This document shows positions 3,001-9,000 of a DNA stretch of 64,000 bases, piece after piece. Location: assembly GCA_963707655.1 (NCBI GenBank), contig OY970172.1:1-64000 (forward strand). Reading direction: 5' to 3'. A program made the position numbers. Origin of the DNA: an uncultured bacterium (GTDB taxonomy: Bacteria; Babelota; Babeliae; Babelales; Vermiphilaceae). The stretch's first letter is position 1. Every line of letters begins with the position of its first letter.

Positions 3001-6000
3001 CTTTTTGTCGGGTGGCAACTTTTTCGGGGAAGACATTTTGGCCCAGACTATGAATGTTTATCAAGTTAATTGCTTCTCTGAGTTGATTGTCGTTTTCAAG
3101 TACTTTTTTTGCACGTTCCAGCCAGCTCAGCTGCTTGTCATCTTTCTTCTCTTCATTTTTCTTTTTTTCATCATCTTTACCATTGCCGTTTTTTATATAA
3201 TTCGACAATGAGCTTTCGCTGCCATAGAACTTTTTAATCCAGAGCATTTGCTCTGTTGGGGGAAAGCTTTTTTCTACCTCAAAATCAGGAGTTATTCCTT
3301 GCGCTTGAATTGATATATCACCGGGAAGAAAATAGAGAGATTCGGTAATTTTTACCGCACAGTCGTTCCCCACCGGAATCACGTCTTGTACTGACCCTTT
3401 GCCAAATGTTTTTGTCCCAACCAAAAATACCATTGCTTTCTTGCTGTTTTTGGCATTTTTTTCTGCTGCATTTTGTGAATGGAGTTTAAGGCAACCGGCC
3501 AGAATTTCAGCGGCAGAGGCGGTGTAATTATTAATCAAAATGAATATGGGAACATTGGCTGCGATAGGTTCTTTGCTGGTACTGTAACGGCGCGTTTCTT
3601 TGCCATCTTTATCTTTGGTAGTCACCACGAGACTTCCTTTATCGAGGAAAAGACCCGCAATATCAACAACGGATGAGAGGAGCCCTCCCGAGTTATTGCG
3701 CAAATCAATAATGAGTGCTTTATATTTTTTTTCTTTTGATTTTCTTAATAATTCTTCAATCTGTTTTACTGCATTTTCACTAAACATGGTGAGTGAAATA
3801 TAATAAATATCATGCTCTTGTAAGTGGAAACAGAGTGAATTTTGCTCTTTAATCACATCGCGTGTTATGTCAAAAGAGAGCGGATCCATTTGCCCTTCGC
3901 GGGTGATTTTTATAGTAACTTTCGTATTGCGCTCACCTTTTATCTTACTCATGGCTTGGTCCGTGCTCATGTTTTCGAGTGCTTCGCCACCAATCTCGAT
4001 AATTTTATCAAGAGGCTTTAAACCTGCTTTATCGGCGGGACCATCAGGAATAGTGTCAATGATCATCAAAAATTTATCTTTTTGCAAACGGGTGTTATCA
4101 ATAATAATCCCAATACCAAAAAATTCTCCGCTCGTTGATTCGAGCATTTGCTTGTAGTTTTTTGGATTGAGAAAATTTGAATGGGGGTCAAGGCAGTTAA
4201 CAAAACCATCGATTGCCTTTATCATGCATTCTTCTGCATCATTGATTTTATAATGACGCTCTTCAACAATTTGTAATACTTGTGCAAAAGTCCGTAACCA
4301 ATTATAAATGGTTTCTTCATATGTTTTTGGTTGCTCGATTTTTTCTGTTTTGCTTGGCTCATTTTGCGTTGTTGACAAAACAATAGGAAAAAACAAAATG
4401 ATAGCGAGTAAGCACGTTGATTTATTTATACGCATCATAGACTCCTCTAATAATTGTCTTAAAAAAACTATATCATTCTTATCTTCGCAAAAGCTAATCT
4501 TTATAAGAAATACGCAGTAAGATTGGTATTAATGAAGCATAATTGCTGCAAAAGGGAGAATAGTATGCATGAAAAAAAGCGGTGGCTGCTGCGCATTGCT
4601 CTTGCCACTGAAGTACTGTTGTTTGCTATAACTTTTTTCTTTGACTCACATGGCATGCGTGCGCTCTATGCATTGCAAGCAGAAACGGTAGTGTTGCGCA
4701 ATGAAATTGATACTCTGGGCAGCGAAGTGGCTGTGCTTGAGCATGATATTGCGCAGTGGCATGAAGATGTTTTTTATAAAGAAAAAATGGCGCGCGAACA
4801 ATTGCAAATGGCGCGATGCGATGAAATTATTTATTATATTGAATAAAGCAAACAACATTTATCTATGGGATATTACATGAAATATAAATACACATTGCCT
4901 CCATTACCTTACGATTACAGCGCTCTTGAGCCTTATATTGACGCAAGAACTATGGAGATTCATTACACCAAACATCATCAGGCTTATGTTGATAACCTTA
5001 ACAAAGCACTTGAGGGCTATGAGCAGTTACAGCATATTGAGTTGAGTGAGCTGATCGCCGGTATTGATGATCTACCGGAAGAAATCAAAACCGCAGTGCG
5101 TAACAATGGTGGTGGCCACTTGAATCATTCATTTTTTTGGAAAATCATGAAAAAAAATGGTGGTGGGGAGCCAAGCGGCAAAATTGGTGACGCTATTAAA
5201 AATACTTTTGGCACATTCTCTAAGTTTCAAGATGATTTTAATGCAGCGGCAAAAAAAGTTTTTGGTAGCGGCTGGGCATGGTTGTGTATTAATGACCAGA
5301 GAAAAATTTCAATTATTTCTACCCCTAATCAGGATTCACCGATAATGCAAGGGCTCACACCTCTTTTGGGGCTCGATGTGTGGGAGCATGCGTATTATCT
5401 TTCCTATCAAAACAGAAGACCCGATTATATTACTGCGTGGTGGCACGTAATTAATTGGGATCAAGTAGAAGAAAATTTTAAGCAAGCATTATAAAAACTG
5501 ATCATGTAGGGGCTCCTTGGTATGAAAATCAAGGAGCCTATTTTACTTTAATGGATATGATTATCCTGCCGTTGCCAAAGCTTGGTTTTTCTTATCAACA
5601 ATGCTTTGAATAACATCGACAATAAGTTTTTTGTTTTCAACGACAGCAAATTCGGTGAGCCCGCTTAATAAATCGATAACGTCTGTCTTGTAGGTAAAGT
5701 TGAATGTGCTGCATGCATCGTCGGGACAGTTTTTTGGATCAAATGTTTTTGAATACGCATCATTTTTGACCAGTGGCATATAGATAATTGTTGGGCTGGA
5801 GGGATTGTTTTTGTCCTGAAATACCGTAATAGAGTTGGCCACTTTAGCGTAATCTATTGCAGGAAACGGAATGCCTTTTTCTTTGAAATATTCTTCTGTT
5901 TTGCGTAACTCGTCACCGGTGGTGCCGGCAGAATTATCAAACACAAGAATCAGATCAACAGCGCGCTCTTTTTGCAAGAGCGGCGGCATTGGCAAGTTAT

Positions 6001-9000
6001 AGTGGATACCGGCATCAAGCAAAGTAAGAGTTTTTTTATTGCCGTACGGAAGACCAAGCATACCAAAGGTAAAATTATTTACCTCAGCAGGGAAAAACCG
6101 CGCTTTGCCAATTTGTACGCTGCCGGCAGCTTTAAGCATATCAAGTAAAAATTCAGGGCGTAGCTCTTTGCCAATGACCGTTAATGCTTCTTTGAGATTG
6201 ATACCAATAGCATAGCCAAAAGTGCCCATGAGGTAACCGAGTGATTCTTGGGGAACATAATTTATTGAAGCGCTATTAATAAAGTGTCTACCAAGAGCCC
6301 AGGGAGGAATAAAGCCGCCCAGGGCATCACTACCAACTTCATAGGGGGTAAAAGATACCCAGATATACGGTTGATATGAGGTAATCGCGTTGTATATGGG
6401 CAATGGCCTATTGCCATCGGCAATGACATTAGCCTGCGAGGAAAGAAAAATATCATAGGAAGAGGCCCCTTTTGCGTTATCAAGAAATAAAGAAGTGAGC
6501 GCGCCGCCATAGATATCAACCATTGAAAGTGGTTTGTCAAAGACAAACTTCTTAAACATATAGCTACCCAGAGCCGGAATTGAGAACCTTGTATTTATCA
6601 AACCATCAGGAAGACGCTTCTTTAAGAAATCTTTAAATTGGGCGGGAGAAAAATTAAAATGCATAGAAGGAGCTGTTTCCCATGTTGCCCCTGATAACGT
6701 TGATTCATACATTATCCCCCCAAGCAGTCCTATTTTGTCCAGGCCATTTTTTGATCCATTGAAAGCGACTGTCGATCGAACACCACCACCACTACCCAAG
6801 TTTGCAATAATTGGTTCAGAGCCGGGAGCAATATTTTTAATACCCATTTTTTTCAGCGCGGTGTTCACTTTTTTGCGACGTGTTTCCACATATTTTTTTT
6901 CTTGGTCACATAAACCACCACCACCCAAACGTACCGAGGCTTGCATGCTGTTGTAGGGGATTTCTTGCCAGAGTTTGCGTAATTGCCCTATAGTCGCAGC
7001 CAGTAATACATTAATGGCTTTTTTTGTTTTACTGATAATTGGTTGAATCACTTTCCAATTAATGTGATTAAATGCTGCTATTTTTCCTTCCACAAAGGCA
7101 ACATAAAAATTATCAAAAAGAGGATTGGCAATGTTTTGCCTCGCGAGTAAATGCAATTCATCGCCAGATATTTCAGGCTTTAAAAGATCGCCAAGAATTG
7201 AGATGGCTAACTCTCTGCTACCCAGATCCCATTTCATCGAAGGCCGTTCAAAAGCGGTTTTGCTATGGGGGGGGAGCCGCTTTGCCGGTGATGTCCGCTG
7301 CGCTTCTTGTAAAAGAATTGTGGTATAGGTGTAATAAGGGGCCGCGTGCAAAGAGATGTCAGATTCATTGTGTAGATATACGGTATCAGCATGCAGTGAT
7401 ATGATCGGATACAATAAGAGTAGTATGCTTTTTTTATTCATGAATCCCCCACCTTTTTATAGATATAATTTAGATAGCGCCCATTTCGAGTATAGATGAA
7501 TCAAAATGACCGGCGCAATTATTTAGGGACAGAATAAGCTTTAGCTTTTTAAATCAAAAGATATATACTTTTATTTTAGAATATTCAAAACTCCCTTATT
7601 ATCGCAAATTATTATGATGAAAAATAAATCCATTCCTGCTCCGCATGACCAAACTCCTGAAGCTGAATATGAAGTGCGCGTTGAAAAAGTTGTCAATATG
7701 CGCAAGCTTGGTATTGAGCCATGGCCTTCGTACAAAAAAATAAATGCTACAACAGCTGAAGTTAAAGCTGAATATAAAGATGAAGGGCAATCGCGCGTCT
7801 ATGAAGTCGCCGGCCGCATCATGACTATGCGCTTGCATGGAAAAACCGCTTTTTTTCATATTCAAGATCAACATGGGCGCTTGCAAATATACTTGCGTGA
7901 AGATGTTGTTGGTGCTGAAAATTTTGGTCGCTTTGAGCAGTATATTGATAATGGTGATATTGTATGGATTTCTGGTCATTCATTCAAAACAAAGACCGGT
8001 GAGATTACTCTCAAAGCTGATAACTATGAATTGTTGAGTAAATGCTTGCATCCTCTGCCGGACAAATTTCATGGGTTGAGCGACATAGAAACTATTTATC
8101 GGCAGCGTTATCTTGATCTTATTACCAATCCCGATAGCCGCGAGCGATTCCGTCGCCGCAGCATGATTATACGCACTCTGCGCTCCTTTCTTGATTCTCA
8201 TGATTATGTGGAAGTGGAGACGCCCATGTTGCATCCTATTCCCGGTGGCGCAGCAGCGCGTCCATTTGTAACTCATCACAATGCGCTTGATTCTGATTTT
8301 TATTTGCGCATTGCTCCTGAGCTTTATTTAAAAAGACTTGTTGTCGGTGGCATTGAACGAGTGTATGAGATTAATCGCAATTTCAGAAATGAAGGCATTT
8401 CTACGCGCCACAATCCTGAATTTACCATGCTTGAATTTTATACCGCGCATGAAAATTATGTTTTCGCCATGGATTTTACTGAAGAAATGTTGCGCATGGC
8501 GGCACAAAAAGCAAGCAACAGTTTGCAGTTGCCATTTGGTGAGCATATGTTGAATTTTGAACAGCCATTCAAACGCATTACGCTCAAAGAAGCGGTGATA
8601 GAATTTGCTGCTGTTCAACCGCATGAGCTTCTTGAAGAGAGCATTGATGCGACCTTGCAAGCAAAGAAAGTTTCTTTGGCACAAAAAGATGCTTCATTGG
8701 GACAAAAAATATATGCATTGTTTGAACAATTGGTTGAACATCAATTGATTCAGCCAACTTTTGTCACCCAATTCCCTATAGAAGTCTCTCCACTTGCAAA
8801 GCGTGATCATCATGACATGCATGCGGCTGCGCGTTTTGAACTCTTCATTGCCGGTATGGAGCTGAGCAATTCATTTAATGAATTGAATGATCCTTTCGAG
8901 CAGGCAGAGCGCTTTAAAGAGCAGGTGCAATCTCGCCAGGCAGGTGATAGTGAAGCTCATTATTATGATGCTGATTTTATTGAAGCGCTTGAATATGCAT

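What a model noticed while it worked through the whole genome (the two positions that open the first line are those of the whole stretch)
5561..7441. Two secreted cPLA2-type (PLA2_B) lipases, a eukaryotic enzyme almost confined to Babelota among bacteria
The genome has two paralogues (g00009 at 5561-7441, g00704 at 708613-710184) of the catalytic domain of eukaryotic cytosolic phospholipase A2 / lysophospholipase. Each has a signal peptide instead of the C2 domain, and the SGGG(F/V)R box, the G-x-S-G nucleophile elbow and the D-(A/G)-G aspartate are in place. I read them as secreted phospholipases, taken from a eukaryote early in the phylum, that open or remodel the host vacuole membrane or harvest host lipids. 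New would be a phylum-marking, host-derived lipase as a candidate entry or egress factor of Dependentiae.
Evidence so far: Pfam PF01735 is on both genes (i-E 3e-17 and 4e-35). The best Swiss-Prot hits are animal cPLA2 zeta/alpha/beta, 25-27% identical over 536-607 aligned columns, E 1e-27 to 2e-37. In relatives.tsv the family is in 181 of 260 other Babelales genomes (61 of 79 Vermiphilaceae) but in only 221 of 189,784 bacterial species genomes and 0 archaea. Motifs read from the sequences: g00704 FSGGGFRAM, AAGLSGSTW, LMDGGLSCN; g00009 LGSGGGVRS, ESTLSGATW, LLDAGIHYN. Both have N-terminal hydrophobic leaders. Ten papers hold Dependentiae + phospholipase; none of the 9 listed is about a Dependentiae enzyme (listing only, call 93).
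(Added by a program. Inside this text positions count along the whole contig: contig position 1 is position 1 of the stretch shown here. "Call 12" and the like, gene names such as g00115 and contig names such as C1 are that model's own, and its searches are not shown. The text may have been shortened before it was handed on; [...] marks where a part breaks off. The agent that wrote the report below was given it as the finding of a first reader that could run no searches.)

Follow-up and report, generated by a model that had tools for sequence, protein, structure and literature searches.

The report
Exported cPLA2-type lipase of a protist parasite
A small bacterium that lives inside protists and cannot make fatty acids encodes an exported enzyme of the animal/fungal cytosolic phospholipase A2 type with an undescribed N-terminal domain, which probably frees fatty acids from host membrane lipids.

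Summary
The ORF at 5561-7441 (-) encodes 626 aa and passes Pfam PLA2_B (58 bits, cut-off 23). It aligns to human cPLA2-alpha with the Arg, Ser and Asp positions kept. Its model superposes on 1CJY at Z 44 (rmsd 2.1 A, 424 residues); patatin-like lipases reach only Z 12-19. A second copy lies at 708-710 kb. The family is in 204 of 261 genomes of the phylum and 19 of 21 families, often at a conserved SOD-LysS-lipase-RecJ locus.

Corrections:
- The window protein does not simply swap C2 for a leader. It has a leader, a confidently modelled ~105-residue beta-sandwich with no Pfam or specific fold match (73 of 261 genomes, always fused to the lipase), a long helix, then the catalytic domain.
- Its elbow reads T-L-S-G-A, not G-x-S-G.
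- Eukaryotic origin is unproven. The bacterial sequences form one weakly supported group (57) not nested in animals or fungi.

The genome has no ketoacyl synthase or patatin but keeps a FadD-like ligase, ACP, PlsX, PlsY and PlsC. I therefore favour fatty-acid harvest from host phospholipids over vacuole lysis.

Four Dependentiae genome papers name no lipase. This scan had already noted a fused PLC/cPLA2 enzyme in another Dependentiae genome. Activity and location are untested.

The parts
5561..7441 (-). Whole gene, 626 codons plus stop: exported cPLA2-type (PLA2_B) acyl hydrolase, long form
   Evidence: ORF list and translation. Full-length orthologues of 57-78% identity cover the N-terminus from Met1, so the 558-aa database call from Met69 (P0002) is too short.
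7388..7441 (-). Leader, residues 1-18 (MNKKSILLLLYPIISLHA), probable Sec signal peptide with cleavage before Asp19
   Evidence: Two Lys, then a hydrophobic run (10-residue Kyte-Doolittle mean 2.5). It is a helix of low pLDDT in the model. An 'A-D' boundary is conserved at the start of the beta-sandwich in most rows of alignment A3. No signal-peptide predictor was available, so the cleavage site is inferred.
7067..7387 (-). N-terminal beta-sandwich domain, residues ~19-125, no known family
   Evidence: pLDDT is mostly above 90, both in the full model and when folded alone. No Pfam family matches at E<=10. Best fold matches are generic sandwiches: PepT2 extracellular domain Z 8.3, rmsd 2.8 A, 87 aligned; transthyretin-like Z 6.6. 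Foldseek finds nothing at E<=1e-3. A profile of it matches 73 of 261 genomes, and only this gene in G000.
6968..7066 (-). Long connecting helix, residues 126-158
   Evidence: DSSP on both models.
5591..6943 (-). cPLA2-type catalytic domain with cap, residues 167-617
   Evidence: VIA-align: 1cjy_B Z 44.0, rmsd 2.1 A, 424 aligned, 28% identity, model range 167-617. cPLA2-delta 5iz5_B gives Z 42.2. Foldseek: 1cjy_A E 2e-33. Pfam PF01735 covers residues 212-509.
6776..6793 (-). S217-G-G-G-V-R222, glycine-rich loop and Arg aligned with R200 of human cPLA2-alpha
   Evidence: phmmer alignment to 1CJY. The Arg is kept in 50 of 51 Dependentiae and 27 of 27 eukaryote rows.
6686..6700 (-). T248-L-S250-G-A252, nucleophile elbow; Ser250 aligns with S228 of human cPLA2-alpha
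   Evidence: The Ser is kept in 51/51 and 27/27 rows; the first position is Thr here, where most rows have Gly.
6008..6016 (-). D476-A-G478; the Asp aligns with D549 of human cPLA2-alpha
   Evidence: The Asp is kept in 51/51 and 27/27 rows.
5510..5539 (.). Terminator-like hairpin (12-bp stem) between the convergent ends of the SOD gene (ends 5494) and the lipase gene (ends 5561)
   Evidence: Consensus scan. The region holds 3 such sites against 2.5 expected in shuffles, so this is weak evidence.

Best explanation
The gene encodes a catalytically competent serine-aspartate acyl hydrolase of the group IV cPLA2 / PLA2_B type. It is probably a phospholipase A/B or lysophospholipase.

A Sec-type leader takes it out of the cytoplasm. 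The mature protein has three parts: a beta-sandwich of unknown family, a long helix, and the cPLA2 catalytic domain with its cap.

Its most likely job is to release free fatty acids from host glycerophospholipids. The bacterium cannot make fatty acids, so it would activate the released ones with its single FadD-like ligase and build its own phospholipids through ACP, PlsX, PlsY and PlsC. The beta-sandwich sits where cPLA2 has its C2 domain, and I infer that it docks the enzyme on a membrane or lipid surface.

The short paralogue at 708-710 kb lacks the sandwich. It belongs to a second, equally old clade and probably does a related job at another place, time or substrate.

Shown: family, fold, catalytic residues, leader-like N-terminus, distribution, synteny, and the metabolic gap and salvage genes. 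Inferred: substrate, final location, role of the sandwich, and the link to lipid salvage.
For: Enzyme identity:
- PF01735 at 58.4 bits against a 23-bit cut-off.
- 1CJY by sequence E 4.9e-32, with R200/S228/D549 aligned to R222/S250/D476.
- Model pLDDT 91.5, pTM 0.84.
- Fold match to cPLA2-alpha Z 44.0 and cPLA2-delta Z 42.2. PlpD, CapE, CapV, iPLA2-beta, VipD, patatin and ExoU reach only Z 12-19.
- Ser, Asp and Arg are kept in 51/51, 51/51 and 50/51 Dependentiae rows.

Export:
- Leaders are visible in both copies.
- A crude leader test is positive in 116 of 155 and 47 of 66 family members that start with Met, against 5 of 27 named eukaryotic homologues.
- The genome has two secretin genes and type II/IV-pilus-type ATPase genes.

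Need for fatty acids:
- 0 ketoacyl-synthase matches in the one-contig genome, where 14 of 14 control genomes match.
- One PlsC, one AMP-binding enzyme whose best NCBIfam match is long-chain-fatty-acid--CoA ligase, 387 bits, under its cut-off of 476, PlsY, ACP and PlsX.
- No patatin, so the two PLA2_B genes are the only lipases of this superfamily.

Published context (passages read):
- TM6 genomes lack fatty-acid synthesis and 'may exploit host-derived lipids' by mechanisms 'mostly unknown' (PMC4776705).
- Chromulinavorax shows no lipid biosynthesis, and host membranes fall into disarray late in infection (PMC6561590).

Old and maintained:
- 204 of 261 genomes and 19 of 21 families carry the family.
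- LysS or RecJ lies within 3 kb in 25 of 74 related loci.
Against: - No activity, substrate, localisation or expression data exist. No RNA run is on record (see Tried and rejected).
- A Sec leader shows only export to the periplasm.
- The leader test is a home-made hydrophobicity rule, not a trained predictor, and about a quarter of family members fail it.
- 57 of 261 genomes, some over 95% complete, have no PF01735 match although they too are expected to lack fatty-acid synthesis. The enzyme is therefore either not indispensable or is replaced there.
- The elbow of the window protein has Thr where nearly all relatives have Gly. Its Pfam score is half that of the paralogue, so it could be slower or have a changed specificity.
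- The FadD-like ligase scores under its family's curated cut-off.
- The genome is rated 88.6% complete by marker genes, so absences are not absolute, although it is a single contig.
Confidence: 0.55

Rival explanations
1. Membrane-attacking effector. The exported lipase is delivered to the host side and breaks or remodels the phagosome or vacuole membrane (or the host plasma membrane) for entry, escape or egress. Patatin-type effectors such as ExoU and VipD and the fungal secreted phospholipase B are reported to damage host membranes in this way (roles recalled).
For: The leaders and an outer-membrane secretin/ATPase set are present. Host membrane disarray is seen late in Chromulinavorax infection (PMC6561590 passages). 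The N-terminal sandwich gives weak Foldseek matches to the membrane-binding domain 4 of cholesterol-dependent cytolysins (5imt_A E 2.5e-3; pneumolysin domain, Z 5.5 with rmsd 5.3 A). Multiple and tandem copies in relatives (up to 5 matches per genome) resemble effector families.
Against: No type III, IV or VI delivery signal or chaperone was looked for or seen. The cytolysin-domain matches are below the level at which unrelated sandwiches score (notes a typical best Z of 7-8 for unmatched models). The gene sits among housekeeping genes in a locus conserved across the phylum, not in an island. This role and lipid harvest are not exclusive.
Confidence: 0.25
2. Housekeeping envelope enzyme. A periplasmic lysophospholipase or transacylase that remodels or detoxifies the bacterium's own or imported (lyso)phospholipids, with no direct action on host membranes.
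For: A Sec leader alone predicts the periplasm. Several eukaryotic members of the family act mainly as lysophospholipases or transacylases (recalled). The Pfam family name itself is 'Lysophospholipase catalytic domain'. The gene lies in a conserved housekeeping neighbourhood.
Against: Free-living and most other bacteria do without this family (0 of 14 control genomes). Its restriction to an obligately intracellular phylum points to the host. No MlaD-type phospholipid transport protein was found in this genome. Two deep clades and repeated duplications are more than a single housekeeping step would need.
Confidence: 0.15
3. Inactive or degenerating copy. The window gene is a diverged paralogue (Thr in the elbow, low Pfam score) that has lost catalysis and serves only as a binding protein, or is decaying.
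For: The Pfam score is 58 bits against 118 for the paralogue. The elbow has Thr for Gly.
Against: The frame is intact at 626 codons. Ser, Asp, Arg and the Gly-rich loop are all kept. Orthologues at 57-78% identity keep full length, and six other family members share the same Thr. The model is confident and close to cPLA2 (rmsd 2.1 A).
Confidence: 0.05

Closest known systems
Group IV cytosolic phospholipases A2 of animals (human cPLA2-alpha, PDB 1CJY; cPLA2-delta, 5IZ5/5IXC) and their fungal homologues (e.g. Aspergillus PlaA)
   Same: Same Pfam family. Same catalytic-domain fold including the cap (Z 44 and 42; 424-431 residues aligned). Same Arg, Ser and Asp positions and Gly-rich loop. 26-32% sequence identity.
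   Different: This is a bacterial protein with an export leader, not a cytosolic one. No C2 domain is detected by sequence. In its place is a beta-sandwich with no specific relative, plus a long helix. The elbow reads T-L-S-G-A instead of G-L-S-G-S. Calcium control, arachidonate preference and MAPK phosphorylation of cPLA2-alpha (recalled) have no visible counterpart.
Secreted fungal phospholipase B (Plb1-type, also PF01735; properties recalled, not tested here)
   Same: A PLA2_B-family enzyme with a signal peptide that a microbe releases and that acts on host phospholipids. This is the nearest precedent for an exported member of the family.
   Different: No fungal PLB was included in my alignments or tree. 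The named fungal hits here are the cPLA2-like 'lysophospholipase/PlaA' type. Glycosylation and a GPI anchor of fungal PLB (recalled) do not apply.
Bacterial patatin-like phospholipases (ExoU, VipD, PlpD; CBASS lipases CapV/CapE)
   Same: The same Ser-Asp dyad superfamily and core fold (Z 12-19). ExoU and VipD are reported to act on host cells (recalled).
   Different: These relatives are much more distant: Foldseek E 1e-4 to 1e-2 against 2e-33 for cPLA2. There is no PF01734 match in the protein or anywhere in the genome. They lack the cPLA2 cap: 225-284 residues align, against 424.
Fused PLC-like/cPLA2-type exported phospholipase of another Dependentiae genome
   Same: The same phylum and the same cPLA2-type catalytic domain with an export signal, according to that note. 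A 1233-aa relative whose last 565 residues match residues 68-619 of the window protein appears in my search (P0223).
   Different: The window protein is the unfused long form. I did not test P0223 for a PLC domain.

Membership tests
PLA2_B / group IV cPLA2 catalytic domain (PF01735) | Profile match above Pfam's gathering score | tested here: met
   58.4 bits against a cut-off of 23, E 6e-16. The paralogue scores 118.5 bits.
PLA2_B / group IV cPLA2 catalytic domain (PF01735) | Nucleophile Ser in a G-x-S-x-S/G elbow, aligned with S228 of human cPLA2-alpha | tested here: met
   S250 aligns with S228. The Ser is kept in 51/51 Dependentiae and 27/27 eukaryote rows. The first Gly is Thr in this protein.
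PLA2_B / group IV cPLA2 catalytic domain (PF01735) | Dyad Asp aligned with D549 | tested here: met
   D476 aligns with D549 and is kept in 51/51 and 27/27 rows.
PLA2_B / group IV cPLA2 catalytic domain (PF01735) | Gly-rich loop with Arg aligned with R200 | tested here: met
   S217-GGG-V-R222 aligns with S195-GGG-F-R200. The Arg is kept in 50/51 and 27/27 rows.
PLA2_B / group IV cPLA2 catalytic domain (PF01735) | cPLA2-type alpha/beta fold with cap region | tested here: met
   1cjy_B Z 44.0, rmsd 2.1 A, 424 aligned. 5iz5_B Z 42.2. This rests on a predicted model of pLDDT 91.5.
PLA2_B / group IV cPLA2 catalytic domain (PF01735) | Acyl-ester hydrolase activity on (lyso)phospholipids | not testable with these tools
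   No biochemical data. Needs expression and assay.
Classical cPLA2 architecture (C2 domain + catalytic domain) | N-terminal calcium-binding C2 domain (PF00168) | tested here: inconclusive
   No Pfam match to residues 19-176 at E<=10. The domain is a beta-sandwich in the C2 position, but the fold lists show other sandwiches. The best cPLA2 superpositions start at residue 165-169. An unlisted fold is not excluded.
Patatin-like phospholipases (PF01734) | Profile match to PF01734 | tested here: not met
   PF01735 is the only family found at E<=1. The genome has 0 PF01734 matches. Fold similarity is only at superfamily level (Z 12-19).
Sec-exported protein | N-terminal signal peptide with signal-peptidase site | tested here: inconclusive
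   The basic, then hydrophobic, leader and a conserved A|D boundary are seen. No trained predictor was available, and the cleavage site is inferred.

The most novel reading that the evidence does not exclude
The exported cPLA2 family may be the missing first step of lipid acquisition for a whole phylum of intracellular bacteria, aimed by a previously undescribed beta-sandwich domain. The gene flow may also have run the other way: the catalytic domain of animal and fungal cPLA2 could descend from a Babelota-type parasite enzyme rather than the reverse. The bacterial side has two deep clades, a conserved chromosomal locus and about 1,600 sequence clusters. It is not nested inside any sampled eukaryotic group, and the named eukaryotic homologues I saw are almost all opisthokonts.
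Probability: 0.15. Interest if true: 0.85.

Novelty: new variant of a known kind. Interest (0 to 1): 0.6.

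Why it matters
Dependentiae/Babelota are a widespread phylum of obligate parasites of protists. 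Published genome studies agree that they make no fatty acids, and state that the way they get host lipids is unknown (PMC4776705, PMC6561590; passages read).

A near-universal, exported, eukaryote-type phospholipase gives a concrete and testable candidate for that step. So does the matching salvage route of FadD-like ligase, ACP, PlsX, PlsY and PlsC.

It is also a rare case of a 'eukaryotic' signalling enzyme family being a core gene of a bacterial phylum. That makes the origin of cPLA2 an open phylogenetic question.

The N-terminal sandwich is a compact, well-predicted domain with no family assignment. It may be a new membrane-targeting module.

Tried and rejected
- RNA evidence: no RNA holder is listed for the gene. 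12 runs are listed, the best share of words is 0.32, and all are DNA metagenome contigs. I did not lay reads.
- Viral contigs: 35 pattern matches, none a relative.
- ESM Atlas, N-domain: the best score is 0.76 to an unnamed cluster, a lead only.
- ESM Atlas, paralogue: it returns eukaryotic PF01735 clusters at 0.95-0.97 and bacterial patatin-type clusters at 0.90-0.92. This gives no range of the family.
- C2 domain: none appears among the 50 rows of either fold list for the N-domain. This does not exclude it.
- NCBIfam has no model for the protein.
- Earlier notes of this scan, by sequence and by place: nothing.
- The 'phylum' scan returned the same 261 genomes as the 'order' scan and added nothing.
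- I could not reach genomes of other phyla with the genome search because no handle was available.
- The genome-contig scan used Dependentiae-tuned peptide patterns, so it is not a test of absence elsewhere.
- MlaD-type lipid transport: no match in this genome.
- Promoter scan: 5 sites against 6.4 expected, so uninformative.
- I considered a complex prediction and a third large homologue search with a protist query. I left both out because they were unlikely to change the verdict.
- Supplements of the Dependentiae genome papers (for example Additional file 10 of PMC4378268) were not opened and could list these genes.

Full report
**1. The observation**

The window has an intact ORF at 5561..7441 on the minus strand, 626 codons from an ATG.
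- Pfam finds one family, PF01735 (PLA2_B, 'lysophospholipase catalytic domain'): E 6e-16, 58.4 bits against a curated cut-off of 23, residues 212-509.
- NCBIfam has no model for it.
- A six-frame search of the window's own genome (G000, one contig of 1,091,075 bases, 88.6% complete by marker genes) finds exactly two PF01735 matches. One is this gene; the stronger one is at 708922-709884 (-).
- The second match lies in a 523-aa ORF scoring 118.5 bits.
- GC content across the gene (0.41-0.43) equals the genome mean of 0.413.

**2. What the protein is**

By sequence, the best solved relative is human cPLA2-alpha (1CJY, E 4.9e-32), followed by cPLA2-delta (3.4e-26). Counting along the printed alignment:
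- S217-GGG-V-R222 lies on S195-GGG-F-R200.
- T248-L-S250-G-A lies on G226-L-S228-G-S.
- D476-A-G lies on D549-S-G.

In a 78-row alignment of 51 Dependentiae and 27 named eukaryotic sequences:
- The Ser is kept in 51/51 and 27/27 rows.
- The Asp is kept in 51/51 and 27/27 rows.
- The Arg is kept in 50/51 and 27/27 rows.
- The first elbow residue is Gly in 37, Thr in 7 (this protein among them), Ala in 6 and Ser in 1 of the Dependentiae rows.

An AlphaFold2 model built on 71 full-length relatives has mean pLDDT 91.5 and pTM 0.84.
- Foldseek puts cPLA2-alpha at E 2e-33 and cPLA2-delta at 5e-29. Patatin-like lipases reach only 1e-4 to 1e-2.
- VIA-align gives 1cjy_B Z 44.0 (rmsd 2.1 A, 424 residues, 28% identity, model residues 167-617) and 5iz5_B Z 42.2.
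- PlpD, CapE, CapV, iPLA2-beta, VipD, patatin and ExoU give Z 12-19 over 225-284 residues.

This is therefore a genuine member of the cPLA2 branch, cap included, not merely a patatin.

**3.

Alignment with close and distant relatives shows that residues 1-165 are conserved (N25, Y36, R66, P67, R76, L87 and F112 are nearly invariant).
- Met1 is therefore the true start. A 558-aa database version of the same protein that starts at Met69 (P0002) is a short gene call.
- The model shows a leader helix (4-13, low confidence), an all-beta domain (strands between 20 and 125, pLDDT mostly above 90) and a single long helix (126-158) leading into the catalytic domain.
- Folded alone from 20 sequences read off related loci, the domain again gives pLDDT 91.4.
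- It has no Pfam match at E<=10 and no Foldseek match at E<=1e-3.
- Its best structural neighbours are generic sandwiches: PepT2 extracellular domain Z 8.3, HGSNAT luminal domain 7.0, transthyretin-like proteins 6.6, TssJ 6.2, pneumolysin domain 4 at 5.5. This is the range in which unrelated models also score.
- No C2 domain appears in those lists. The good cPLA2 superpositions begin only at residue 165-169.

The protein thus has a beta-sandwich in the place of C2, but not one I can call C2.

A profile of this domain matches 73 of 261 genomes of the phylum, spread over 8 of 21 families. It matches only this gene in G000. Where I compared coordinates, the match lies directly upstream of a PF01735 match in the same open frame. 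The paralogue lacks the domain.

**4. Export**

Both proteins begin with two or three basic residues and a hydrophobic run: MNKKSILLLLYPIISLHA|DT and MKKNPVVLFFCLLLLPTFSCA|LN.
- The 'A|D' junction is conserved at the start of the sandwich in most rows of alignment A3.
- I applied a simple rule of my own: a 10-residue Kyte-Doolittle mean of at least 2.0 in the first 35 residues, with a Lys or Arg before it. It is met by 116 of 155 and 47 of 66 family members that start with Met, and by 5 of 27 named eukaryotic homologues.
- The genome has two secretin genes and type II/IV-pilus ATPase genes.
- Export to the periplasm is thus likely. Release beyond the outer membrane is inferred only.

**5. Distribution and age**

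- PF01735 is found in 204 of 261 genomes of the order, G000 included. In this collection the order is the whole phylum.
- It is in 148 of 189 high-quality genomes, 110 of 145 genera and 19 of 21 families (none in f6, 0/7, or f8, 0/4). In the window's own family it is in 65 of 79 genomes.
- 0 of 14 control genomes match.
- Many genomes hold 2-5 matches, often in tandem.
- An exhaustive search of 1.84 billion cluster representatives finds 1,609 proteins at E<=1e-3, 1,218 at E<=1e-10 and 620 at E<=1e-30.

A scan of one genome per species returned 74 related loci. By title they divide as follows:

| Title | Loci |
|---|---|
| Dependentiae / TM6 / Babeliales / Babeliaceae | 45 |
| 'bacterium' or 'uncultured bacterium' | 14 |
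| 'uncultured Pseudomonadota' | 14 |
| 'Clostridiales bacterium' | 1 |

- The 'Clostridiales' contig has the GC content of G000 (0.41-0.42). 17 of its 35 ORFs of at least 120 aa match G000, and eight of them (of the nine + strand matches of L078) lie in the same order as G000 positions 192-208 kb. It looks like a Babelota contig in the wrong bin.
- At least 5 of the 14 'Pseudomonadota' loci have the Babelota-type LysS and/or RecJ neighbours, LysS at 63-71% identity.
- I thus saw no convincing case outside the phylum. However, the scan's patterns were tuned to these sequences, so this is not a test of absence.
- Earlier notes of this scan describe a very large family of membrane-split lipases in soil bacteria whose closest solved relative is also cPLA2. 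'cPLA2-like' at fold level is therefore not confined to this phylum, even if PF01735-scoring proteins may be.

Synteny shows old, vertical inheritance.
- LysS lies within 3 kb of the lipase in 19 of 74 loci and RecJ in 18 of 74. One or the other is present in 25 of 74, although the flanks are only 3 kb and many contigs end there.
- The usual order is SOD-LysS-lipase-RecJ on one strand. Both long and short forms occupy that site.
- In the window, in its closest relative L003 and in L029, the lipase lies between SOD and LysS.

**6. Relation to eukaryotic enzymes**

- Outside the Dependentiae-like sequences, the best named hits are Mortierellaceae 'lysophospholipases' (E 1e-41), the ichthyosporean Creolimax (2.4e-43 to the paralogue), other fungi, and animal cPLA2 zeta, epsilon, delta, beta and alpha.
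- No named bacterium of another phylum appears in either list of 120.
- I built a maximum-likelihood tree: 78 rows, 577 columns, LG+C20 by PMSF, quick search, SH-aLRT support only. I chose the rows by hand, and dropped all unnamed sequences of eukaryote-like length.
- Fungi form one group (support 94) and animals another (97).
- The Dependentiae sequences fall in two large groups: a short-form group of 22 rows (90) and a mainly long-form group of 28 rows (87). One long branch stands apart.
- The window protein and its paralogue fall in different deep groups, so they are an old pair, not a recent duplication.
- All 51 Dependentiae rows are one side of a branch against the 27 eukaryotes, with support of only 57.
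- The tree is unrooted and five rows have long branches.
- It is compatible with a single ancient transfer. It does not give the direction, and it does not support a donor among the present hosts.

**7. Why lipid harvest is the favoured role**

| Function (Pfam family) | Result in G000 |
|---|---|
| Ketoacyl synthase (PF00109) | 0 matches; 14 of 14 controls match |
| Patatin (PF01734) | 0 matches |
| MlaD (PF02470) | 0 matches |
| AMP-binding enzyme (PF00501) | 1 match; best NCBIfam long-chain-fatty-acid--CoA ligase, 387 bits, under its cut-off of 476 |
| ACP (PF00550) | 1 match |
| PlsX (PF02504) | 1 match, 302 bits |
| PlsY (PF02660) | 1 match |
| PlsC (PF01553) | 1 match |

This is the set needed to turn free fatty acids into phosphatidic acid, and it lacks a source of fatty acids.

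Published genome studies, of which I read passages found by term search, say the same for the phylum:
- Chromulinavorax shows 'no evidence of lipid biosynthesis' and host membrane disarray late in infection (PMC6561590).
- Babela cannot make fatty acids but keeps phospholipid-synthesis enzymes (PMC4378268).
- None of these three main texts, nor PMC12172432, contains the word 'lipase'.

An exported phospholipase A/B is the obvious missing step. This link is my inference. Membrane lysis for escape or egress remains possible and is not exclusive.

**8. Literature**

| Search terms | Papers | Outcome |
|---|---|---|
| Dependentiae + phospholipase | 10 (9 listed) | I read passages of two; both irrelevant |
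| PF01735 + bacteria | 7 | All fungal by title |
| TM6 + phospholipase + amoeba | 12 | None relevant by title |
| PLA2_B | 39 (38 listed) | None bacterial by title |
| PLA2_B / cPLA2-like / bacterial / horizontal gene transfer, at least 3 of 4 | 0 | - |

I opened no supplements. Gene tables there, or papers outside the held library, may list these genes.

Within this scan, a follow-up on another Dependentiae genome had already described a fused PLC-like/cPLA2-type exported enzyme (e1-2399465). The presence of cPLA2-type enzymes in the phylum is therefore not new to the scan.

**9. Verdict**

The finding is real and well above chance. It is a new variant of a known enzyme kind:
- a bacterial, exported, C2-less cPLA2 with an undescribed beta-sandwich;
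- a core gene of a parasitic phylum;
- well placed to explain how these bacteria obtain fatty acids.

The claims of eukaryotic or host origin, of secretion into the host, and of a role in entry or egress go beyond the evidence.

Noticed in passing
window 2924-10686; loci L003, L017, L029, L039, L040 and others: A conserved neighbourhood recurs across the phylum: C-terminal protease, small FtsB-like gene, SOD, LysS and RecJ, with the lipase inserted either between LysS and RecJ (most loci) or between SOD and LysS (the window, L003, L029). Both long and short lipase forms use the LysS-RecJ site.
   Followed up: partly
L046, L077, L078 (contig titled 'Clostridiales bacterium GWF2_38_85'): This contig carries three tandem PLA2_B genes. 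It has the GC content of G000, and its gene order is collinear with G000 192-208 kb. It looks like a Dependentiae contig binned or labelled wrongly.
   Followed up: yes
L009, L012, L019, L024, L026, L033, L034, L047, L048, L060, L069, L070, L074, L076: Fourteen related loci come from MAGs titled 'uncultured Pseudomonadota'. At least five (L012, L019, L026, L047, L060) have the Babelota-type LysS/RecJ neighbours, so the label is probably a default and not a real placement.
   Followed up: partly
window 5561-7237 (protein P0002): The public protein collection holds this gene only as a 558-aa product starting at Met69. That call cuts off the leader and a third of the N-terminal domain. The conserved N-terminus of orthologues shows the 626-aa form is right.
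   Followed up: yes
G000:C1:764698-765845 (outside the window): A type II/IV-pilus ATPase (T2SSE) match is split over frames, with in-frame TGA, TAG and TAA stops inside the matches. It may be a frameshifted or decaying gene.
   Followed up: no
G085:C7:138410-138805; G059:C27:229-525: The N-terminal sandwich profile matches genomes in which the PF01735 scan found nothing. One is a 665-aa open frame in family f8, which scored 0 of 4 for PF01735. The PF01735 counts are therefore floors, and some catalytic domains may be too diverged for the Pfam model.
   Followed up: no
P0223 (1233 aa); G167:C12:58188-58499 (1243-aa frame); G027, G032, G035 (974-983-aa frames): Much longer relatives carry the sandwich and/or the catalytic domain at their C-terminal end.
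   Followed up: no
L013, L019, L026, L030, L035; G144:C20; G199:C2; G187:C1; G188:C3: Tandem pairs or triplets of lipase genes, each with its own sandwich domain where present, are common in relatives. G000 instead keeps one long and one short copy 700 kb apart.
   Followed up: partly
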